IMG/VR virus record: IMGVR_UViG_3300036783_000194
Coordinates: 1 to 36,846 of that record
DNA from: a virus
Taxonomy: Duplodnaviria; Caudoviricetes
DNA length: 36,846 nt
Strand: one strand, 5' to 3'
Shown here: piece after piece, positions 973-35,222 of the stretch
Numbering within the stretch: position 1 is the stretch's first letter
How the letters are laid out: every line of letters begins with the position of its first letter
Position numbers and translations under genes: made by a program
Notes under the pieces: model-generated
Databases searched by the model: none
Told to the model about the DNA's origin: nothing
Seen by the model: only the letters and a program-made list of their open reading frames with translations

Positions 973-1737
973 GTGACGCGCCGGTTTATTGGCACAATGG
1001 CCTCAAACGCGAACCTCGCTCGAGCTCGAGACGTTCTCCCGCGCAACCTGCCGCGGCTGGCGGAGCTCCTCAATGAACGCCGGCGCCGGGCGCGCAACAA
1101 ATTTGCGCGCATGTATCCGGATCATGGGCCGTATCGCCGGGAGCTCTACGCAAAACACATGCAAGTCGTGGAAGCAACACGCCTCGCGAATCAAGTTGCA
1201 TTCATCGCTGGAAACAAGGTCGGAAAGTCGGAGCTCGGCTGCTATTGCCTGGCGGCCTGGCTCACTGGCTTATTCCCGGCGTGGTGGCACGGCCGGCGCT
1301 TCGCGGGTCCGATTACGGGCTGGATCGCGGGCGAGAAAAACTCCGTCGTTCGCGACTCACTCCAACTGAAGTTATTAGGGCCGCTAAACGATCTCGGAAC
1401 CGGCTTGATACCTGGAGACCATATTTTCCGGGCGACGCGAAAGAGCGGGCTCTCGGACGCGATAGACACGCTAACAATACGGCACGTCTCCGGCGGGCTC
1501 TCCTCGCTGCGCTTCAAAAGCTACGAAGAGGGCCGGCGCGCGTTTCAGGCTACCGATATCGACGTGCTCATGCTCGATGAAGAACCTCCGATGGATGTAT
1601 GGGTCGAAGGGCTCATGCGCTTGATGGTACGGCAAGGGCTCGCGCTCTTGACGTTCACGCCTCTATCGGGCTGGTCGGAGGTAGTATCTGAGTTTCTCGA
1701 CGCGGCGGATCTGTTACATCCGCCGGCAGAAGTTTAG
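973..1737 (+). CDS. terL: Terminase large subunit, ATPase half (P22 gp2-like); start may be ATG 997
   Basis: Walker A-like AGNKVGKS, FKSYEEGR, Walker B VLMLDEEPP, motif III TFTPL. Confidence 0.92.
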   Translation: MTRRFIGTMASNANLARARDVLPRNLPRLAELLNERRRRARNKFARMYPDHGPYRRELYAKHMQVVEATRLANQVAFIAGNKVGKSELGCYCLAAWLTGLFPAWWHGRRFAGPITGWIAGEKNSVVRDSLQLKLLGPLNDLGTGLIPGDHIFRATRKSGLSDAIDTLTIRHVSGGLSSLRFKSYEEGRRAFQATDIDVLMLDEEPPMDVWVEGLMRLMVRQGLALLTFTPLSGWSEVVSEFLDAADLLHPPAEV

Positions 1738-1912
1738 AAAACTCCATTGCAGTGTCGACCATATCGGAAACGCATCCGGGCGCGTGGCCTCCGCCTCTGA
1801 TGGCCTCAAATTCAAGCTCAACCTCGCGCGTGGCGCCGCGCTTCACTAACCAAAAGACTTTTTTCCATTCCTCCGCGGTCATTGAAACCGCGATCATTTC
1901 CGGTTTATCCAT
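1655..1912 (-). CDS. Small antisense ORF (85 aa) occupying the gap between the two terminase halves
   Basis: ATG start at the edge of the insertion; protein-like sequence MDKPEMIAVSMTAEEWKKVFWLVKRG; only a weak GAAGG upstream. Confidence 0.45.
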   Translation of the reverse strand: MDKPEMIAVSMTAEEWKKVFWLVKRGATREVELEFEAIRGGGHAPGCVSDMVDTAMEFSKLLPADVTDPPRRETQILPPTSPIEA

Positions 1913-2646
1913 TGCCTTCGAAAATTACCATTCAAGCCGGCTGGGACGATGTTCCGCACCTGAGCGAAGCGTACAAGCGGGAGATGCTCGACGCCATTCC
2001 TCCGTATCAACGCGACGCGCGTTCAAAGGGTATTCCGGACATGGGCGCCGGCGCCGTGTATCCACTCGCGCCGGAAGATTACACGACGGACAGAAAACCG
2101 GATCCGCTCTGGCCGCGCGCCTATGGCCTTGATGTGGGCTGGGAGCAAACGGCCGCTACGTGGTTAGCCTGGGATCCGGAGGCCTCTTTCGGGCTCGTGT
2201 ATGACGAATACTTTCGAGGGCAAGCGGAACCGGCGATACATGCGGCCGCGATTCGCGCGAAGGGCGACTGGATACCGGGCGCGATTGATCCGGCCTCCGC
2301 GGGCTCGAGTCAAAAGGACGGCGAGAAATTGATTGAGACTTACGTTGAGCTCGGCCTCGTGCTCACGCCGGCGGATAACGCGGTAACGGCCGGGACGACG
2401 TTGATTTATAACCTGCTCTCGACGGGGCAATTAAAGATTGCGCGGCATTGTGTCAACTTACTCAAGCAAATGAAAATGTATCGACGCGACGAACGCGGCC
2501 GCATCGTTAAGAAAAACGATCACGGGCCGGATGCGCTCCGCTATGGGTGCATGACGGGGCCGAAGATTCGTAGAACACGGCCGGCGAAGATCTCCGTTGA
2601 TAACTGGCTCCGGCCGGATCTCAACGCCGGCGGCTGGGCTGGATAG
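1882..2646 (+). CDS. terL: Terminase large subunit, nuclease half; likely start TTG 1912 (MPSKITIQAGWDDVPHL)
   Basis: WDDVPHL, RSKGIP, YGLDVGW (RNase H-fold Asp) and KKNDHGPDALRY motifs typical of P22-type TerL C-termini. Confidence 0.9.
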   Translation: MKPRSFPVYPLPSKITIQAGWDDVPHLSEAYKREMLDAIPPYQRDARSKGIPDMGAGAVYPLAPEDYTTDRKPDPLWPRAYGLDVGWEQTAATWLAWDPEASFGLVYDEYFRGQAEPAIHAAAIRAKGDWIPGAIDPASAGSSQKDGEKLIETYVELGLVLTPADNAVTAGTTLIYNLLSTGQLKIARHCVNLLKQMKMYRRDERGRIVKKNDHGPDALRYGCMTGPKIRRTRPAKISVDNWLRPDLNAGGWAG

Positions 2647-4776: not shown

Positions 4777-4855
4777 ACAACGATCTTCACGCGTAAGCGT
4801 AAGGGCCTCCCGGCGGCCTCCAATGCCGGCGATACCCCAACACTCGGGAGAAACT

Positions 4856-5851
4856 ATGGCAGATAACAACGGAGCTCCGGCACTTGACGCGCCGGAGCTC
4901 TCACAGTCGGACTATCGCGCGCTGCGCGAAGGTCGCACGATTGCGGTAAAAACCTCCGAAGCTCCGCCTCCGGCTCCTCCGCCGGCGGATGCTGAAAGCG
5001 GCGCCGGCTCGGAACCGGCGGATGATCTCGAGGGGCAAGGCGGCTCCGACGAAGGTAAAGACGGACAGCAGCAACAAGGCGAGAAGAAACCAGCGGGCGC
5101 GCAACAAAAGCGCGGCCTGGTGGATGAGGTTATCAAGCTCAGAAGAGAGAATCGTGATCTAAAGACGCGCGGCGCGGCGCCTCCGCCTCCGCTACCAGAG
5201 CAACCGAAGCCGGCGCCTCAAGGCGCGCCGGGCGAAGCTGCTCGAGCGGGTCGGCTCGAGGAACCGGATATATCCAAATTCACCGATTACGACAAGTTCA
5301 ATCGGGAGTTTATCCGGGTGCAGGTGCATAACGCGCAACTCGACGCGGCCGAAGCAAGGGCGGCCGCGGATAAGGCGAGCGCGGAGCAAACGGCGCTCCA
5401 GCAACGCATCGGAACCTGGCAAGGGCGCCTCCGCGCGGCCGCGGTTGAGTTCCCGGACTTCGAAGCGGTCGCGTTCCAGACTACGCTTCCGGTCTCGGCG
5501 ACGATGGGCGACGCCATCATGGGCTCGGAGCTCGGGCCAAAGGTGCTCTATCATCTCGGCTCGCATCCGGACGAAGCGGCGCGGATCTCGAAACTCTCAC
5601 CAATTGATCAAGTGCGCGAAATTGGAAAGCTCGAACACTCACTCTCACAAGCTGCCGCGGCCTTGGCCTCCGGCGAAGAAGAAGAAGAAGAAGTACCGCC
5701 TCCCTCTGCAAAATCAGCCATCAGCAAAGCTCCGCCTCCGGTTCCACGGCCGGCGGGCGCCGCGAAAGCGGGAGCTCCTTCGATGAAAAGTCTCGAGGGT
5801 ATCTCGCAAGCGGAGTACCGCGCGCTGCGCGAATCCGGCCGGCTGCGCTGA
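4856..5851 (+). CDS. Scaffolding protein
   Basis: Between portal and coat; acidic disordered N-part, GPKVLYHLGSHPDEA..IGKLE core, SKAPPP and C-terminal EYRALR helix; ATG 4856 after GGGAGA. Confidence 0.85.
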   Translation: MADNNGAPALDAPELSQSDYRALREGRTIAVKTSEAPPPAPPPADAESGAGSEPADDLEGQGGSDEGKDGQQQQGEKKPAGAQQKRGLVDEVIKLRRENRDLKTRGAAPPPPLPEQPKPAPQGAPGEAARAGRLEEPDISKFTDYDKFNREFIRVQVHNAQLDAAEARAAADKASAEQTALQQRIGTWQGRLRAAAVEFPDFEAVAFQTTLPVSATMGDAIMGSELGPKVLYHLGSHPDEAARISKLSPIDQVREIGKLEHSLSQAAAALASGEEEEEEVPPPSAKSAISKAPPPVPRPAGAAKAGAPSMKSLEGISQAEYRALRESGRLR

Positions 5852-5888
5852 GTAACGGCCGCCATAGAAGCGGCAACCCTAAAACCAC

Positions 5889-7115
5889 TTGGCAAATACA
5901 ATCCTTACTCCGACAGCGATCACGCGCGAAGCGTTGATGCTGTTGGAGAACAGCCTCACCTTCACAAAATACGTTCGGCGCGCTTACGATGATAAGTTCG
6001 CTATCTCGGGCGCCAAAATTGGCGCGACTATCAACCTTCGGATTCCGCCTGTTTTCGCGGTCACGAAAGGGCCTAACCTCTCCATCCAGAACTACACGGA
6101 AACGCAGTTTCCGCTAACACTCAATCAACAGGCTCACATCGACGTGAGCTTTTCCTCGGCCGAACTCACGCTCTCAATTCAGGACTTCTCTGATCGCGTT
6201 CTCAAGCCTCAAATTGCACAACTCGCGAACCAAATAGATCAGGATGGGCTCGCTCAGTTCGTCAATGTTTATAAGTCCATCGGCGTGTCGGGCACACCTA
6301 ACACGACGTTTGCGCCGTTCTTGGCTGCCGGCGTCGCGCTCGATAACTCGGCCACTCCGCGCGATGGCGAACGCTCTATCGTGCTCTCGCCGCAAGGTCA
6401 AGCCGATGCAGTTGGCGGGCAATTTACAACGTCTTTCAACGATCAAGACACCATCGCCAAACAATACTTAAACGGCACAATGGGCCGCGCGCTGGGTTTC
6501 CGCTGGTCAATGGATCAGAACGTTAATTCATTGACGGTGGGGCCAATGGGCGGGGCGCCTGTCGCCGCGGGCGCGGGACAAACGGGCGCCACGCTAGCGA
6601 CTTCCGCATGGACGGCGGCCGCGGCCTCGCGGCTGCTCGGCGGCGAAACATTCACTCTTCCACTGGTCTATGAGTGGAATCCGATTGCAAAACAGTCAAC
6701 CGGCAAATTGCAAAGTTTCACGGTAACGGGGCCGGTCTCGAGCGATGGCGCGGGCCTGGCTACGGTTCCCATTTCGCCTTCTATCATCACTTCCGGCACT
6801 TCGCAAACGGTGACAAACTCACCGGCGAATAACGCCGCGCTTACCTTCACATCGGGCGCGGCCGGCGCAATTACACCTGTAGGGCTCGCCTTCCATTCGA
6901 ACGCGTTCGCCTTCGCAACGGTTGACCTTGAGGACGTGAGCAAATACGGCGCCTGGGGCGCGCGCGTCTCTGATGATCAACTCGGCGTTTCTATGCGCGT
7001 AGCTCGCCAGTACGCGATCGGCTCGGATACCGTTCCGTGTCGCATTGATGTTCTCTACGGATGGGGCACGCCGCGGCCGCAAATGGCTTGCCGTGTCCTG
7101 GGCTCGAACACTTAG
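5889..7115 (+). CDS. Major capsid protein, P22 coat (gp5) family
   Basis: MANTILTPTAITREAL, KIGATINLRIP, ELTLSIQDFSDRVLKP, MDQNV and RIDVLYGW motifs; position after scaffold. Confidence 0.93.
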   Translation: MANTILTPTAITREALMLLENSLTFTKYVRRAYDDKFAISGAKIGATINLRIPPVFAVTKGPNLSIQNYTETQFPLTLNQQAHIDVSFSSAELTLSIQDFSDRVLKPQIAQLANQIDQDGLAQFVNVYKSIGVSGTPNTTFAPFLAAGVALDNSATPRDGERSIVLSPQGQADAVGGQFTTSFNDQDTIAKQYLNGTMGRALGFRWSMDQNVNSLTVGPMGGAPVAAGAGQTGATLATSAWTAAAASRLLGGETFTLPLVYEWNPIAKQSTGKLQSFTVTGPVSSDGAGLATVPISPSIITSGTSQTVTNSPANNAALTFTSGAAGAITPVGLAFHSNAFAFATVDLEDVSKYGAWGARVSDDQLGVSMRVARQYAIGSDTVPCRIDVLYGWGTPRPQMACRVLGSNT

Positions 7116-15410: not shown

Positions 15411-18400
15411 ATGTCAAGCTCTCCGATTGATTACGAAGCTCTCGCGCGCAAAGCGGGGGCGCTCGTGTCGCAACCTGCCGGCGTCGACTATACGGCGCTC
15501 GCGAAGCGCGCCGGCGCGCTCGCTTCTCGGCCGGCCGCTGCGGTTCCAGATGCGGGCGCTCAAATGCGATCGCGCGCGCTCGGGGCGGCGGGCGCCGAAA
15601 TGTCGGAAATGGATCAGCTCATGAATTACCGGCCGCCGGAAGTGGTCGATAATCGCGGGCTTCTCGAGACGGGATGGGACACCTTAACGGGCGCGCTCGG
15701 CGGCCTGGTGCACGTGCCGCGGGCGAACGAAATAGGGCCAACTCTCACGGCGGAGAACATGAAAGATGTTCCGGTGCAAACCGTGGCGCAACTCGAGAAC
15801 GAAGCGCGCTCGGGGAACCTGCCGGGCATGGCGGGAACGGTTTTAGGAACGGGCGCCGCGATCGCCGGGCCTGGTCTCATCATTCACGGCATAGCGAAGG
15901 GCGCCGGCGCTCTAGGGCGTCTCTCTCGCGGCGGGGTGCTAGAACCTCAACTCGACCCGGCGGAGGCCTCCGCGGTTCAATACGGCCACGAGGAAGGCGT
16001 TCAAATGCCGGCTTCGGTTCAATCGGGCTCGCCGGCCGTCGCTCATGGCGAAAAGGTTCTCCAACACTTTCCGCTCGCCTCCAAGGTCGCGAAAACGGCG
16101 CGCATGGCGGAGCAATCCACACTTGCGGCCGCGGGCGCTCGCGAAGTCGCCGGCCTGGGCTCGCCGGAGGCGGGGCCGGTTCCGTCTGCTATTGATGTCG
16201 GCGAAGCTATCCACGCGAAAGTAGATCAGTCGATCGCGGGGCATGCGGCCGCGGGCGCGAAACTCGCGGGCTCGGCGCCGTCGCTGCTCGATGTCGGCGA
16301 AGGGGTGAACCGGGCCTCACAAGCGGCGGTCGAAGCTCACGGCGCCGCGGCGGATAACGCCTATGATCTTTTCCGCTCGATCGAAGCGCAACCGGAATTT
16401 AAGGCGCGGCTCCAAACCGGAACGCGGCGCGTAGCTACGGGGGATCTGGACGGGGGCGGAGCTCCCATCTATAAAACTGAGCCTGTCGTTGAGGATATTC
16501 AACTCCCGGTTGATCGCCGGCCGGCTCAACTCGCGTTAAAGCCTGTTCTCGCGCGGATGCTCCGGCTTATGCCTGTGGCGCAAGAACAGAGCTCAGTAGG
16601 GATTAAGGCGCTCCGAAACATAGTCGAGGGCCCGGCGTTCGAAAGTGCCTCGATCACCGATGAGGACCTGGGCGCTATTAAGAGCATTGTTCGGGATAGC
16701 GGCGACGCTAAAACGGTCGGGCTGGCGAAAATGGCGGTCGATCAACTCTCGCGCGCGATCGACTCCGCGGCGGAGCGCGCCGGGCCGGATGCGGTCGCGG
16801 CGCTCAAAAAAGGGCGCGCGTCAACGGTCGCAAAGTACGGCGCGATCGACTTTCAAAAAGACATCGGTTTTCAAAACGCCGGCATGTATGGCGCCACGCC
16901 GGGCGAACCTGTAGGCCTGGCGAATAGCCTCCTGAAACCTGGGGATCGGTCCATTAACCTGCTCCGCAACGTGGCGGAGCAAACGCCGGCACACGTGGCA
17001 ACGATCGCGGACGGGCTCGCGCATGATCTGGTACAGCAGGTGCGAAGCGGCGACGCGGCCGGCGCGCTCGAGAAGTGGCGCGGCTACGGCGACGCGACGA
17101 AAAAGATTCTCTACCCGGAACCGGAGGCGCCGGCCGGCGGCGGAGCTCCTCCTCCCAGTAAGGCGGCCGCGCTCGGCTCGTACCTCGAACGGGCGGCGGA
17201 GCTCGAGCGCGTAAAGGGCTCGCTCCCGAAGTCGGACGCGCTCGTTTCAACCGTCGTGAGTGGCGGCGAACGCGGGACAAACACGCTCCGGACGATCGCG
17301 GCTCACGCGCCGGAACATATTCCGGCGCTCGCGCAAAGAGTGGTGCAAGATCTCATCGACACTGGAACGGCCGAAGCGGGCATGAGTAAACCGCAAAGCG
17401 TGCTCCGGAAGTGGACCGATATAGGCGACGAAAAGAAAGATATCCTCTTCCGGGATCCATACCCGAACACCGGCGCCGGGCCGCGCGTGCAACGCCTGAC
17501 GGACTTTTTCACACTGATGAAAAAGCTCGGTGAGAATCCGAACCCTAGCGGATCCGGCGCGATGCTCGCGATGGTCAAAGGGATCGGGCTGGTTCTCACG
17601 GCGCCGCATATCGGCATTCCGGTACTACTCGGCTCGCGCGCCGCGGCGCGGATGCTGTTCAATCCGGAGAGCTCGCGGTGGATGATGCAAGCTCTCAAAA
17701 TGCCGGCGACGGCGAAGGGCGCGCCAATTCTCGCGCGTCAAATCATCCAAGCGGCGGGGCCGGATGTGGATACCGTATCGACTGGTACGGAAGAGACAAT
17801 AGCGCCGGCGGCCGCAAGTGTGCAACCGTCGGGGGGCGGAGTCTCAAATGCAGAAGCGACAAATACCGGATCCGGACAAACCGCGGCGACTGGAAGCGCG
17901 GCTAGAGAAAGCGCGCCTCCTGGCGCTGGAACGGTTAGCGGGAAAAAATCCCGAAACACAACAGTCGAAATCCCTGGTAAGCCTGGCGCGGGTTACGCGG
18001 CGCGATACGAATTAAAAGAGCTCGGCGACTCGAGGGCCTCTCACTCCGGGCTCACGTTTCAGGAAACGCCGGAGTACCCTCTCGAGAATCAACGCAACTA
18101 TAAGAGCGCGGTCAATCAAGGAAAGATTGTTCATTGGAGCTCTGAGGCGGAGTTCAATCCGGATTATCACGTCGGGCCATCGGTGGACGCGATCAACGGG
18201 CCTCCGGTCGAAGATTCGGCCGGAAACACCATTTCCGGGAACGGCCGGCACATGATTCAAGAGCGCGTGTATGCGGCCGGCGGGAAAGCGGCCGCGCGCT
18301 TACGCGACGCGATCGCGCAACGGGCCGGCGAAATTGAGGGGCTGGATCCGGAGCAGGTGTACAAGATGAAACGGCCGTCTCTGCGGCTGGTCATTCCGGA

Positions 18401-19292
18401 TGAGGAATTTGCGCGCCGCGGGCCTGGCGCAAAACAAAACCTGATCGCGGACACGAACGAACCGGGAACGGCCGCGCTCACGGCCGGCGAACGCATGATC
18501 TCGGATTCGCGGCGCGTCTCCGATGCAACGGTGCATCATGTGGGCGGGCTGCTCGAGTCGATCGGGCCGGAGGCGACTCTTTCCGAAGCTCTCGACGGGC
18601 GCGCCGGCGCCGAAGTGCTTTCTAAGCTGGTCGAGGATGGCGTGGTCTCGCCTCAATCGCGCGCCTCTTTCGTGAAAGAAACGAAACTCGGGGATGTTCT
18701 CACCGAAGAGGGCAAAGAGCGGGTTACGCGGCTGATGGTCGGGCGCTTCTTCGAACATCCGGACCAACTCGCGAAGCTGCCGGCGGTGCGGAATCAAGTT
18801 GAGCGGATCGCGGCGCCTCTCTCCTCCGTCGACTCGATCAAAGAGTGGACGCTCACGCCGGCCGTACAAGAGGCGGTCGGCATCCTCGAGCGGGCGCATG
18901 ATCTCGGGGCGAAGAACCTCGATGATTTCCTGCAACAAGATTCCATTTTCGGCGCGGCCAAGTTCTCGCCGGAAGGGGTCGACCTGGCGCGGGCGCTGAA
19001 GTCGGCGCCGGCCGATGCGATCAAGGGCGCGGCTCGGCAGTACGCCGGCGACGCTGTACACGCCTCCCGCGGCGCTTCCATGTTCGGCGATACCTCAACG
19101 CCGGCGGAAGCGTTTAAGGCGGCCTTTAGTCCAGAGGCGCTCGAGGCTCGCGCGGCGGAGCTCAAAGCGGCGCGGGATGCGGCTCGAGCTCCAAAGGCGA
19201 ACGCGCTCGCGACTGTTCCGGCCGCGGCCGAAGCTCCGGCGGCGAACACTCTCGCGCCGAAGAAACCTCGCAAACCGCGCGCTAAGAAGTAG
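15411..19292 (+). CDS. Large ejection protein (gp16-like position) with C-terminal DdrB-like ParB-superfamily domain
   Basis: 1293 aa; C-terminal YAARYEL..ASH..NQRNY..GPPV...ISGNGRHM resembles DdrB/DarA-type ParB domains. Confidence 0.65.
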   Translation: MSSSPIDYEALARKAGALVSQPAGVDYTALAKRAGALASRPAAAVPDAGAQMRSRALGAAGAEMSEMDQLMNYRPPEVVDNRGLLETGWDTLTGALGGLVHVPRANEIGPTLTAENMKDVPVQTVAQLENEARSGNLPGMAGTVLGTGAAIAGPGLIIHGIAKGAGALGRLSRGGVLEPQLDPAEASAVQYGHEEGVQMPASVQSGSPAVAHGEKVLQHFPLASKVAKTARMAEQSTLAAAGAREVAGLGSPEAGPVPSAIDVGEAIHAKVDQSIAGHAAAGAKLAGSAPSLLDVGEGVNRASQAAVEAHGAAADNAYDLFRSIEAQPEFKARLQTGTRRVATGDLDGGGAPIYKTEPVVEDIQLPVDRRPAQLALKPVLARMLRLMPVAQEQSSVGIKALRNIVEGPAFESASITDEDLGAIKSIVRDSGDAKTVGLAKMAVDQLSRAIDSAAERAGPDAVAALKKGRASTVAKYGAIDFQKDIGFQNAGMYGATPGEPVGLANSLLKPGDRSINLLRNVAEQTPAHVATIADGLAHDLVQQVRSGDAAGALEKWRGYGDATKKILYPEPEAPAGGGAPPPSKAAALGSYLERAAELERVKGSLPKSDALVSTVVSGGERGTNTLRTIAAHAPEHIPALAQRVVQDLIDTGTAEAGMSKPQSVLRKWTDIGDEKKDILFRDPYPNTGAGPRVQRLTDFFTLMKKLGENPNPSGSGAMLAMVKGIGLVLTAPHIGIPVLLGSRAAARMLFNPESSRWMMQALKMPATAKGAPILARQIIQAAGPDVDTVSTGTEETIAPAAASVQPSGGGVSNAEATNTGSGQTAATGSAARESAPPGAGTVSGKKSRNTTVEIPGKPGAGYAARYELKELGDSRASHSGLTFQETPEYPLENQRNYKSAVNQGKIVHWSSEAEFNPDYHVGPSVDAINGPPVEDSAGNTISGNGRHMIQERVYAAGGKAAARLRDAIAQRAGEIEGLDPEQVYKMKRPSLRLVIPDEEFARRGPGAKQNLIADTNEPGTAALTAGERMISDSRRVSDATVHHVGGLLESIGPEATLSEALDGRAGAEVLSKLVEDGVVSPQSRASFVKETKLGDVLTEEGKERVTRLMVGRFFEHPDQLAKLPAVRNQVERIAAPLSSVDSIKEWTLTPAVQEAVGILERAHDLGAKNLDDFLQQDSIFGAAKFSPEGVDLARALKSAPADAIKGAARQYAGDAVHASRGASMFGDTSTPAEAFKAAFSPEALEARAAELKAARDAARAPKANALATVPAAAEAPAANTLAPKKPRKPRAKK

Positions 19293-25682: not shown

Positions 25683-26315
25683 TTGTTTTGTGTAACCTGC
25701 ATGTGCACTATGCCTGCATTTTGTGTCAGAATTGAGCCGAATAAGAGGCGCAAATTATGCCGAAAACGGGGGGCTATTCTGGCGACGGCGCCGGCCGGCG
25801 CGTTTGATCGGAGTGGGCTTGTTGAAGCTCATCTCTACCTAATCGATTTATTGGCGCGGCCGTTGGCGCGTGTTCTGCCGCGTTCGTTTTCCGTTGATGA
25901 TCTTCACGGCGCCGGCCGGCTGGCCTTGGTCGAATCGGCTCGCAACTATCGGCCGGAGCTCCACGGCGGCGCGCCGTTCTCGGCCTATGCGCGGCCGCGG
26001 ATCCGCGGCGCCATGATCGACACAGTACGGCGCGGGGCCTTTGTCGAAGCAAAGCGGCCGTCAATTGAGGGAACGGAACCGGCTTCCGAATGTTTAGCCG
26101 ATGCGGTCGCGGCCATTGATCGCGCGGCGCTCGGTGTTCGCATAGCGGCCGCGCTGCGCGGTCTGCCGGCGCTCGAGCGGCGCGTGGTACTGCTGCATTA
26201 CGAGGATGGGCTCCGCATGCGCGCGATCGGCGATAAATACGGCGTGTGCAAGAGTCGGGCTTCGCAAATACACCGGGCGGCTCTGCGATCGCTACGCCGG
26301 CGGCTGGTGGCGTGA
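25683..26315 (+). CDS. RNA polymerase sigma factor, FliA/WhiG (sigma28)-like; true start probably ~25780
   Basis: Region 2 DDLHGAGRLALVESARNY..FSAYARPRIRGAMID; region 4 LPALERRVVLLHY..IG...VCKSRASQIHRAALRSLR. Confidence 0.85.
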   Translation: MFCVTCMCTMPAFCVRIEPNKRRKLCRKRGAILATAPAGAFDRSGLVEAHLYLIDLLARPLARVLPRSFSVDDLHGAGRLALVESARNYRPELHGGAPFSAYARPRIRGAMIDTVRRGAFVEAKRPSIEGTEPASECLADAVAAIDRAALGVRIAAALRGLPALERRVVLLHYEDGLRMRAIGDKYGVCKSRASQIHRAALRSLRRRLVA

Positions 26316-26460: not shown

Positions 26461-26694
26461 GTGAAAATGAGGCTACATCTGCATAATGCCCATGTGGATA
26501 CTAACGAAATTCCTCAAGCCTGGGAGCTCGAGCGCGGAATGCTCGCGTATGAGGCCTATCGTCGCGCTTGCGCCGGCGTGAGTCTCGAGACGCGCGCGCC
26601 GTTAAAGGACTGGTCAGAGCTCGGCGATGAAATTCAGCGGGTCTGGGTCACTGTGGCGGATGAGATTTGCCGGCGCTTCGGCGCGATCTCCTGA
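26461..26694 (+). CDS. Hypothetical protein (LAYEAY..WSEL...QRVW); start may be GTG 26494
   Basis: Protein-like ORF with a motif style common in small phage proteins. Confidence 0.6.
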   Translation: MKMRLHLHNAHVDTNEIPQAWELERGMLAYEAYRRACAGVSLETRAPLKDWSELGDEIQRVWVTVADEICRRFGAIS

Positions 26695-27042
26695 ACGCAT
26701 CGCGTCAAGCTGCGGGCGAAGTACGCGCTCGGAAAAGTCTCGAATGGATAGCGTGAGCTCTGCGGGCTGAGTGAATAGCGGCGGGATTTTGAGATTGATC
26801 GTTTTTCCGATCTTCGGGCCGGTGATGGCGAACCTTTCCGATAAACCCTCCAGGTCGGAGGGCTTGATGCGGGCTCTGGTCAATTGGAGATTCCGCTCGA
26901 GCAACATCAAGGCCTCGCGCGTTATGGCTGTCGGCGTGAGAATCGTACTCCGGGCCGGCGGCCGCATGGCGCGCGGCGCGAAGCGGGCAAACCTGCCGGC
27001 GAATGCGGCCGCGATCGCGGCGATAAAACCTCGGCGGTTCAT
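26614..27042 (-). CDS. Twin-arginine-signal protein carrying a truncated paralogue of the major capsid N-terminus
   Basis: MNRRGFIAAIAAAFAG leader; three blocks match coat residues 4-20, 37-56 and 91-109. Confidence 0.85.
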   Translation of the reverse strand: MNRRGFIAAIAAAFAGRFARFAPRAMRPPARSTILTPTAITREALMLLERNLQLTRARIKPSDLEGLSERFAITGPKIGKTINLKIPPLFTQPAELTLSIRDFSERVLRPQLDAMRSGDRAEAPANLIRHSDPDPLNFIAEL

Positions 27043-27090
27043 GGCTTCTATTGTGGGGCCGGCGGCTTACGTTGTAGTACCCTTGGCCGC

Positions 27091-27303
27091 GTGCATGGTT
27101 GGGTTTCGTTCATCGTCGGTTATACGCTCGGCCTGTCTTCCGGCTTTGTCCTGCTCTACTATTGCGTTTTTAAGCCTTCGTTGGAGTGTGCGCGGCGCGA
27201 ATCAAGCCGATTCATGCGTGAGAGCTCGGAGCTCAACAGAAAATTTCAAGCGGAACTGATGCGGGCCTTTGAGAGCACGCTCGCGGAACGTCGGCGCGAA
27301 TAA
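27091..27303 (+). CDS. Small membrane protein with C-terminal coiled coil
   Basis: GTG 27091; WVSFIVGYTLGLSSGFVLLYYCVF hydrophobic segment; divergent from the coat-like gene. Confidence 0.6.
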   Translation: MHGWVSFIVGYTLGLSSGFVLLYYCVFKPSLECARRESSRFMRESSELNRKFQAELMRAFESTLAERRRE

Positions 27304-34727: not shown

Positions 34728-35222
34728 ATGCTTACTTGGTTCGCTCTCCAGGTCCGACACGGCAACCGGGAGCGGCGCGTGCAGGGGCAATTGCGGGAAC
34801 TGGCGATTGAGGAATTTCTTCCGCTGTACACGGTCCAGAGTAAATGGAGCGATCGCATCAAAACGATGGAACGGCCGTTATTTCCTGGCTACCTGTTCGC
34901 GCGGGTGGATCCGGAGGCGGGCGACGTGGTGAAGCTGCTCGAGCTCCGGCCGCATATTCTACTCTTACCTTCAAACCTGGCGCCGGAGGCGGTCGCCGAT
35001 GCGGAAGTGGATACCATCGCGAAGCTCTGCGCCTCGGCGCTTCCCCTGCTGCCGGCCGAATATAAGCGCGGGCAAGCGGTCAAGATTCAACGCGGCGCGC
35101 TCGCCGGCGTCGAGGGCATCGTGTCAAAAGTGCGGACTCATTACCGCCTGGTTGTGAACGTCGAGATTTTCCATCGCGCCGTCGAGGTCGAACTCGACGC
35201 GGAAGCGGTCGCGGGGCTCTAA
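34728..35222 (+). CDS. NusG paralogue, UpxY/RfaH-like antiterminator
   Basis: WFALQVR..ERRV, EEFLPL...KWSDRIK..ERPLFPGYLF (NGN domain); GQAVKIQRGALAGVEG (KOW). Confidence 0.9.
   Translation: MLTWFALQVRHGNRERRVQGQLRELAIEEFLPLYTVQSKWSDRIKTMERPLFPGYLFARVDPEAGDVVKLLELRPHILLLPSNLAPEAVADAEVDTIAKLCASALPLLPAEYKRGQAVKIQRGALAGVEGIVSKVRTHYRLVVNVEIFHRAVEVELDAEAVAGL

What the first reader, a model, noticed from the sequence alone, without database searches (positions are those of the whole stretch)
26614..27042. Tat-signal 'mini-capsid': a protein-conserved copy of the phage's own coat N-terminus with an export leader
Seen: this minus-strand gene, about 20 kb from the head module, reads MNRRGFIAAIAAAFAG (twin-arginine RRxF motif plus hydrophobic stretch). 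Three coat-like blocks follow: TILTPTAITREALMLLE (17/17 identical to coat 4-20), FAITGPKIGKTINLKIPPLF (15/20 vs coat 37-56) and AELTLSIRDFSERVLRPQL (15/19 vs coat 91-109). Coat 57-90 is replaced by TQP and everything after ~110 is missing. In block 1, 10 of 17 codons differ from the coat gene and all changes are synonymous, which points to selection on the protein and against a recent duplication or pseudogene. A CACAAT hexamer lies 7 nt before the ATG. Established: the P22 coat N-arm (D14) binds scaffold, and E14 is retained here; some defences such as CapRelSJ46 sense major capsid proteins; Tat exports folded proteins and bound partners. Inference: a capsid decoy that titrates or exports a capsid-sensing immune protein, or a dominant-negative inhibitor of assembly (superinfection control or timing). 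I know of no described system with this architecture.
Basis: partly seen in the sequence, partly recalled or inferred. Interest (0 to 1): 0.93.

Follow-up and report, generated by a model that had tools for sequence, protein, structure and literature searches.

The report
Tat-tagged copy of phage coat arm
A soil phage carries a small intact gene that joins a twin-arginine export-type leader to protein-conserved pieces of its own head-shell protein, a design shared by dozens of other phage proteins and absent from the papers I searched; it likely acts as a membrane-held decoy of the shell's inner face.

Summary
Observation confirmed. ORF 26614-27042(-) is a 142-aa protein: an RRGF leader plus three blocks of the phage's own P22-type coat (47 of 56 residues identical). 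Synonymous sites are saturated (pS 0.82, pN 0.105), so it is an old copy under protein-level selection. It belongs to a family: 71 leader-plus-coat-arm proteins, minis in 9 other viral records (mostly inside head modules), and copies that score best on their own coat in aggregate (permutation 6 of 40320). It is optional (0 of 50 coat-picked records). The kept pieces are the N-arm helix and spine-helix start, which dock scaffold in P22. Relatives also carry scaffold or portal pieces. Corrections: residues 117-142 are antisense read-through into a convergent gene. The leader is a weak Tat signal (no TIGR01409 hit). Known capsid sensors read the A-domain or E-loop, which are deleted here. Best reading: a membrane-held decoy of the coat's inner face (0.42); rival: scaffold-binding assembly modulator (0.30). 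Function is untested. I found no paper on it. This scan noted the same family earlier on other DNA (e.g. e1-6121727, e1-5985264).

The parts
26614..27042 (-). Mini gene, 142 aa (P0001): twin-arginine-type leader plus pieces of the P22-type coat N-terminus
   Evidence: homologues P0004, P0007, P0020, P0054 start at the same M-x-R-R-G-F, P0006 at V-N-R-R-G-F
26947..27042 (-). Leader and linker, aa 1-32: N-R-R-G-F-I motif, 12 uncharged residues, then an Arg-rich stretch (net charge +7); AxA only at 9-13, so likely uncleaved (inferred)
   Evidence: no TIGR01409 hit
26896..26946 (-). Block 1, aa 33-49 = coat 4-20, N-arm helix (model H8-22); 17/17 identical, E14 kept
26773..26832 (-). Block 2, aa 71-90 = coat 37-56, end of F-loop and first E-loop strand (model E46-52); 15/20
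   Evidence: domain borders of P22 gp5 from PMC9965877 passages
26707..26763 (-). Block 3, aa 94-112 = coat 91-109, start of the spine helix (model H97-126) with the residue matching coat R103; 15/19
   Evidence: profile position 103 aligns with P22 chain position 102
26614..26694 (-). Tail, aa 117-142: antisense overlap with the convergent gene; probably not a functional part of the mini
26461..26694 (+). Convergent 77-aa gene overlapping the mini's 3' end by 81 nt
   Evidence: independent homologue P0184, 77% over 73% of its length; weak match to Streptomyces phage Zuko gp36, E 9e-3
5889..7115 (+). Major capsid (coat) gene, P22 type, the template of the blocks
   Evidence: PF11651 E 9.9e-31; phrog_283; Foldseek to Sf6 and P22 coats, TM 0.72-0.74
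4823..5851 (+). Scaffold gene; its C-terminal helix is the candidate partner, and relative P0007 carries a copy of it
   Evidence: phrog_8865

Best explanation
The gene is an old, optional copy of the coat's N-arm helix, one strand and spine-helix start behind a twin-arginine-type leader, kept by selection on the protein, and it likely works as a membrane-held decoy that binds a host protein which would otherwise recognise the inner face of unassembled coat. Shown: the anatomy, purifying selection, family spread, tracking of the own coat in aggregate, patchy presence. Inferred: (1) the protein is made before or with the coat; (2) the basic, probably uncleaved leader docks at TatC or the membrane; (3) the two helices pair or fold on a partner to rebuild the surface that scaffold normally covers; (4) a host sensor or assembly-blocking factor binds this surface without being activated, because the A-domain, E-loop and most of the P-domain are missing, and is held at the membrane or carried out through Tat.
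For: pS 0.82 versus pN 0.105 over 56 codons against the own coat; leader pS above pN in 21 of 21 pairs of related minis. The cargo is modular: P0007 carries a scaffold C-terminal motif (4 of 300 shuffles reach the score over the window's 43 proteins) and P0072 a portal motif (0 of 300) beside the coat arm. In P0007 the scaffold helix sits in cis and would plausibly cover the scaffold site, which fits display of a surface better than titration of scaffold (inference). The gene is optional: 0 of 50 coat-picked viral records (36 at least 90% complete) have a second match, as is typical of counter-defence genes (own knowledge). Tracking of the own coat: rank 1 of 100 here and in G056, permutation 6 of 40320. 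Portal and capsid are known sensor triggers, and mimicry of a trigger is a known phage counter-measure (DSAD1; PMC10973363 passages).
Against: Avs7, 8 and 10 bind the A-domain through large folded interfaces (10.64898/2026.01.04.697583, sections 7 and 11), and Thoeris ThsB1 needs an intact E-loop (PMC12578639 section 9); the mini lacks both. I found no sensor described for the N-arm face. The mini has no confident fold (pTM 0.26 from a 9-row alignment; Atlas pTM 0.20). Its leader is a marginal Tat signal, and unfolded Tat cargo with exposed hydrophobic stretches stalls (PMC13673990 passage). Tracking fails in 2 of 8 pairs (G051 at the 66th, G059 at the 76th percentile) and may reflect shared descent. 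In other records the gene sits in the head module, which fits an assembly role equally well.
Confidence: 0.42

Rival explanations
1. Assembly modulator: the mini rebuilds the scaffold-docking site, binds the scaffold's C-terminal helix (or swaps into a coat subunit) and parks it at the membrane. This would delay or site the phage's own procapsid assembly, or poison assembly of related phages.
For: In P22 the scaffold binds coat N4, D14, E15, E18 and R101 (PMC9965877 passages). The mini keeps coat 4-20 and 91-109 with E14, E20 and the R103 position, and drops 57-90 between them. P0088 carries the same two pieces in reverse order and P0045 has its own short join. The gene lies in or just before the head module, on the head genes' strand, in 8 other records where head genes were mapped. 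Tracking of the own coat.
Against: Absent from 50 of 50 coat-picked records, so not needed for assembly. Only 6 of 71 members reach coat 100-105. Coat N3 is replaced by S here. A scaffold helix in cis (P0007) and a portal piece (P0072) are not explained by scaffold titration. An inhibitor of the phage's own assembly inside its own late operon is costly (inference).
Confidence: 0.3
2. The leader is the active part: a peptide that occupies TatC or a signal-peptide chaperone and dampens host export or envelope sensing. The coat piece serves as a tag, for example to be loaded into procapsids through scaffold and delivered to the next host.
For: The commonest leader type is conserved well beyond RRxF (up to 23 of 24 residues identical with pS 0.49-0.86), more than I would expect of a generic signal peptide (own knowledge). 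Unfolded hydrophobic Tat fusions stall the translocon.
Against: The coat copy is as constrained as the leader and tracks the own coat. The window's leader is of another, shorter subtype. There are no virion data.
Confidence: 0.13
3. A decaying or silent relic of a coat duplication or of a second phage's coat, with a chance RRxF start.
For: No expression data exist. One gene caller starts it at M46 (P0003). Blocks were chosen by similarity, which lowers pN. The tail is read-through.
Against: Saturated synonymous sites with 47 of 56 residues kept. The same leader-plus-arm layout in 71 proteins. Orthologue P0006 keeps leader, blocks and the antisense neighbour's signature.
Confidence: 0.04

Closest known systems
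P22-type coat proteins (Pfam PF11651; P22 gp5, Sf6 gp5; PDB 8I1V, 5L35)
   Same: Sequence of N-arm, F-loop end, first E-loop strand and spine-helix start; acidic N-arm residue and spine Arg that bind scaffold in P22.
   Different: About 56 of 408 coat residues kept; no E-loop hairpin, P-domain sheet, A- or I-domain; no PF11651 hit; added leader; no compact fold predicted.
Twin-arginine (Tat) signal peptides (TIGR01409, PF10518)
   Same: N-R-R-G-F-I motif at the N-terminus followed by an Ala-rich hydrophobic stretch; 27 of 63 family members hit TIGR01409 at E up to 1, 4 above its cut-off.
   Different: The window's protein has no hit, a 12-residue uncharged run, an Arg-rich continuation, no AxA after residue 15 and no folded passenger.
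DSAD1, phage SPbeta mimic of the tail tube protein that blocks DSR2 (PMC10973363, passages)
   Same: Working principle of the best explanation: a small optional phage protein that imitates a virion trigger and occupies a sensor.
   Different: DSAD1's mimicry is structural, as I recall without sequence descent from the trigger (not checked); it has a known target and, to my recall, no export leader. Here the copy is literal sequence and no target is known.
Ccm of SaPIbov5, a capsid-protein homologue that redirects helper assembly (PMC8569155, passages)
   Same: A capsid-derived protein repurposed to act on head assembly (rival reading).
   Different: Ccm keeps the whole HK97 fold, is built into procapsids, and is encoded by a satellite against its helper. 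This is a fragment with a leader, encoded by a complete phage next to its own intact coat.
Tai/Ati tail-assembly interference (PMC11364771, abstract and outline only)
   Same: Small prophage or satellite genes that act on virion assembly; convergent overlapping gene pairs are a loose parallel to the 81-nt antisense overlap.
   Different: Target is the tail; no sequence relation tested or seen; no capsid-derived sequence or Tat leader in what I read.

Membership tests
P22-type coat protein (PF11651) | Full HK97 fold with P-, A-domain and E-loop | tested here: not met
   Only coat 4-57 and 91-110 align; no Pfam hit; pTM 0.26
P22-type coat protein (PF11651) | Homologous N-arm and spine-start sequence | tested here: met
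Tat substrates | RR-x-F-hydrophobic motif near the N-terminus | tested here: met
   N-R-R-G-F-I at 2-7
Tat substrates | Match to TIGR01409 or PF10518 | tested here: not met
   No hit for P0001, P0004, P0006, P0007; 27 of 63 relatives hit weakly, 4 above cut-off
Tat substrates | Uncharged stretch of 13 or more residues after RR (TatFind-type rule, recalled) | tested here: not met
   12 here; 52 of 58 family members reach 13
Tat substrates | Signal peptidase site in a c-region | tested here: inconclusive
   AxA only at 9, 11, 13; SignalP and TatP not available
Tat substrates | Folded passenger, or small hydrophilic unfolded one | tested here: inconclusive
   Model shows loose helices; could fold on a partner
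Tat substrates | TatC-dependent, RR-dependent transport | not testable with these tools
   Needs tat mutants and RR-to-KK; a genome holding a related phage contig has TatC, but the host is not established
Sensor-blocking mimics (DSAD1 type) | Binds a defence sensor and rescues plating | not testable with these tools
   No host or sensor known
Sensor-blocking mimics (DSAD1 type) | Carries the surface that a known capsid sensor reads | tested here: not met
   A-domain (Avs7, 8, 10) and E-loop (ThsB1) absent
Ccm-type capsid redirection proteins | Whole capsid fold, encoded by a satellite | tested here: not met
   Fragment only; the record is a complete phage with its own head genes
Unnamed RRxF-leader plus P22 coat-arm family | RRxF leader followed within about 70 residues by a copy of coat 10-20, in a short protein | tested here: met

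The most novel reading that the evidence does not exclude
Phages have a modular immune-disposal platform: a Tat leader fused to copied pieces of their own head proteins (coat arm, scaffold helix, portal segment) binds a folded host sensor and has the host's own Tat machine carry it out of the cytoplasm as a hitchhiker. The copied pieces would then map which virion surfaces undiscovered sensors read, here the scaffold-facing side of P22-type coats.
Probability: 0.17. Interest if true: 0.93.

Novelty: categorically new. Interest (0 to 1): 0.74.

Why it matters
It is a widespread, undescribed design: phages keep literal, selected copies of small pieces of their own head proteins behind a host export leader. 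If these are decoys, the copied pieces point to sensor targets not yet known, and removal by export would be a new form of counter-defence. If they modulate assembly, they are natural ~100-residue inhibitors aimed at the coat-scaffold contact, testable in the P22 system. The window's member is one of the rare long forms (6 of 71) that join the two parts of the scaffold-docking face and delete what lies between, which makes it a good one to test.

Tried and rejected
Complex prediction of mini aa 30-116 with the scaffold's last 40 residues: no verdict, score 0.00 in both runs, controls not folded; not used as evidence either way. Sequencing runs: one DNA holder that may be the source, no RNA holder listed; its contig matches with no differences; no evidence on expression. 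Idea that the conserved tail is a functional motif: rejected, it is antisense to the convergent gene, and 18 of 20 P0006 tail residues (6 of the 8 that differ) can encode the same antisense residue. Idea that the LEGLSE stretch copies the scaffold: not significant, 186 of 3000 shuffles targeted, and scaffold is not among the top hits over 43 proteins. Amphipathic-helix reading of the leader: moment not above shuffles, 585 of 2000. CACAAT as promoter: not supported. Direct scans of viral contigs with P0001, P0007 and the convergent gene found no locus; P0004 found 22 loci matched through coat-like sequence. The metagenome pattern scan gave 53 matches, most in one unrelated ~295-aa bacterial Tat-leader family or out of frame, and 3 copies of one mini. 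A stricter pattern gave 1 viral and 0 genome matches. GenBank phages: only coat genes matched P0001 (5 records) and P0069 (35 records), so no cultured phage with a mini was found. ESM Atlas: best feature score 0.84, a lead only. A residue-level alignment of the coat N-terminus to P22 was not obtained; the R103-to-R101 match rests and is off by one. DNA for the true orthologues (P0004, P0006, P0007) could not be reached, so dN/dS among orthologues and their cognate coats is open.

Full report
Setting. The window is a complete 36,846-bp viral record with direct terminal repeats, held by one soil metagenome run that may be its source. It is a P22-like podophage: portal, scaffold (4823-5851, phrog_8865), coat (5889-7115, PF11651 E 9.9e-31), ejection genes, integrase, sigma factor, NusG-like and small terminase genes (the portal label is my reading from position and length, not from a family search). 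The coat model matches Sf6 and P22 coats at TM 0.72-0.74.

Observation. ORF 26614-27042(-) encodes 142 aa as described. It matches the coat at E 4e-24 in three blocks: 17/17, 15/20, 15/19. Over these 56 codons 36 of 44 synonymous sites differ (pS 0.82, saturated) against 13 of 124 non-synonymous sites (pN 0.105; Fisher p 3e-18). The blocks were picked by similarity, which biases pN down, but it cannot create saturation. The own coat differs from its four nearest foreign coats at only pS 0.53-0.58 in the same blocks, so the copy is older than those splits. Yet the mini still matches the own coat best: 47 of 56 residues against 46, 40, 39 and 38. The margin over the nearest one is a single residue.

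Corrections. Residues 117-142 are codon for codon antisense to a 77-aa gene at 26461-26694(+). That gene has an independent homologue (P0184, 77%). The tail is shared with P0006, but 18 of 20 P0006 residues, and 6 of the 8 that differ, can encode the same antisense residue, so the tail's conservation is the neighbour's. The CACAAT hexamer is common (13 copies) and no promoter consensus was found.

Family. A phmmer search of 1.84 billion representatives gave 58 hits. I read 12 in full; 5 of them (P0006, P0007, P0020, P0045, P0054), plus P0004, have an RRGF leader before a coat N-terminal copy. A 9-row profile gave 124 hits, 120 listed. Of these 58 have an RR leader by regular expression, 5 of them seeds; the other 62 are almost all pieces of ordinary coats starting at the coat's own first residue, plus the window's own protein, one truncated member and one leader that the expression missed. 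Because profile and filter both contain RR, its invariance is partly by construction. Among 71 leader-bearing proteins (at least one near-duplicate), all cover coat 10-20, 35 reach 55, 7 reach 60 and 6 cover 100-105; the search was seeded on the N-terminus, so lack of C-terminal pieces is biased, but the drop at the E-loop is sharp. The window's protein is a long form. P0004 and P0006 keep a strand that it has lost. P0045 has its own short join and P0088 puts the spine piece before the arm. No Pfam or PHROG model describes the family; 6 of 12 proteins tested (11 members and the neighbour's homologue) hit only the coat PHROG.

Context in other phages. Minis were found in 9 IMG/VR records. Seven hold a P22-type coat; the two without are 30% and 35% complete. 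Three of the nine were reached through their coat; of the six reached through the mini, 4 have a coat. The gene lies between large terminase and portal, just before portal, between scaffold and coat, or up to 3 kb ahead of these, on the head genes' strand, in the 8 records where head genes mapped; in L112 it precedes what I read as a small terminase gene. The window is the exception: opposite strand, 19.5 kb from the coat. The gene is optional: 0 of 50 records picked by coat, 36 of them at least 90% complete, have a second profile match (a partly overlapping set of 50 gave the same with P0001). Tracking: scoring each mini's 24-residue arm copy against 100 coats, the own coat ranks first in the window and in G056, in the top 12% in 5 of 8, and poorly in G051 and G059; permutation 6 of 40320, or 6 of 5040 without the window. 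This does not separate co-evolution from shared descent. In the 7 other pairs pS is 0.58 and pN 0.26; among 7 minis of the commonest leader type, leader pS exceeds pN in 21 of 21 pairs, which are not independent.

What is kept. In the coat model the blocks are the N-arm helix (8-22), strand 46-52 and the start of the spine helix (97-126). In P22 the scaffold binds coat N4, D14, E15, E18 and R101 (PMC9965877, passages). Coat R103 is present in 43 of 45 aligned coats and aligns with P22 position 102, one off. So the long form joins both parts of the scaffold-docking face and deletes the E-loop between them; N3 is not kept. The mini alone gives loose helices, pTM 0.26. Relatives carry other head pieces: P0007 a scaffold C-terminal motif (11 of 16 identical; 4 of 300 shuffles), P0072 a portal motif (0 of 300).

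The leader. The motif fits Tat, but P0001 has no TIGR01409 or PF10518 hit, only 12 uncharged residues after RR against 13 or more in 52 of 58 members (the threshold is recalled), net charge +7 in the first 32 residues and no late AxA. Of 63 members, 27 hit TIGR01409 at E up to 1 and 4 pass its cut-off. A Tat review says small hydrophilic unfolded cargo passes while unfolded cargo with exposed hydrophobic stretches stalls (PMC13673990, passages). Tethering at the translocon or membrane is thus as likely as export. The host is unknown: the closest coat in a genome (74%) is on a 19-kb phage-like contig of a Candidatus Velthaea assembly that has TatC and no mini; the contig may be misbinned.

Mechanism. 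Best: a membrane-held decoy of the coat's inner face (0.42), favoured by patchy presence, modular head-protein cargo and tracking. Against it: Avs7, 8 and 10 bind the A-domain (10.64898/2026.01.04.697583, passages and sections 7, 11) and ThsB1 needs the E-loop (PMC12578639, passages and section 9), so the target would have to be a sensor not yet described. Rival: scaffold- or coat-binding assembly modulator (0.30), favoured by the residues kept and by head-module position. Leader-as-effector 0.13; relic 0.04; the rest unassigned.

Comparison and novelty. It is not a coat, not shown to be a Tat substrate, and not a Ccm- or DSAD1-type protein by the features tested; it may work like DSAD1 (PMC10973363, passages) or Ccm (PMC8569155, passages). 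PMC11364771 was seen as abstract and outline, PMC13728456 as passages; all other papers only as search listings; no supplements were read, and those of the bioRxiv preprint are closed and could list truncation data that bear on sensor sites. Seven full-text searches aimed at this design listed no paper whose title or abstract start describes it; the library lacks most subscription journals. This scan noted the same family and the wider class on other genomes (unchecked AI notes, not counted as support); nothing was noted for this sequence or genome. I rate the design categorically new with function untested, interest 0.74.

Noticed in passing
window 973-1737 and 1882-2646 (+); L004, L005, L006, L259, L110, L175: What I read as the large terminase is encoded as two separate ORFs (ATPase-like and nuclease-like halves by my reading); the halves map to adjacent separate stretches in six related loci. 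A naturally split terminase may be a trait of this clade.
   Followed up: no
window 5864-5871 (+) and 27044-27051 (-): The 8-mer ATAGAAGC occurs exactly twice, just upstream of the coat start and just upstream of the mini start (chance mean 1.07 copies). Possibly a shared translation or timing signal, possibly chance; not seen in the translated upstream frames of near relatives at a glance.
   Followed up: partly
window 27091-27303 (+): A 70-aa ORF with one hydrophobic stretch and a charged helix diverges from the mini with only 48 nt between starts; no match in GenBank phages.
   Followed up: partly
L250:686-1500 (record G054): The coat gene is interrupted after codon 26 by about 815 nt holding an ORF that looks like an HNH-type endonuclease, probably a self-splicing intron.
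   Followed up: no
P0164, P0167: 237-aa leader-bearing proteins that join the coat N-terminus to coat ~344-397, an internally deleted coat lacking A- and I-domain parts.
   Followed up: no
window 4823-5851 (+): The scaffold carries its C-terminal motif (S-Q-x-[ED]-Y-R-A-L-R-E) a second time near its N-terminus, at about residues 27-36.
   Followed up: no
window 15411-19292 (+): A 1293-aa ejection-region protein with a weak ddrB-like ParB domain at 860-985 (PF18763, E 5.5e-4, under cut-off), like polyvalent phage proteins.
   Followed up: no
window 25683-26315 (+) and 34728-35222 (+): The phage encodes its own sigma-70-type factor and a NusG-like antiterminator, candidates for controlling the mini's timing.
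   Followed up: no
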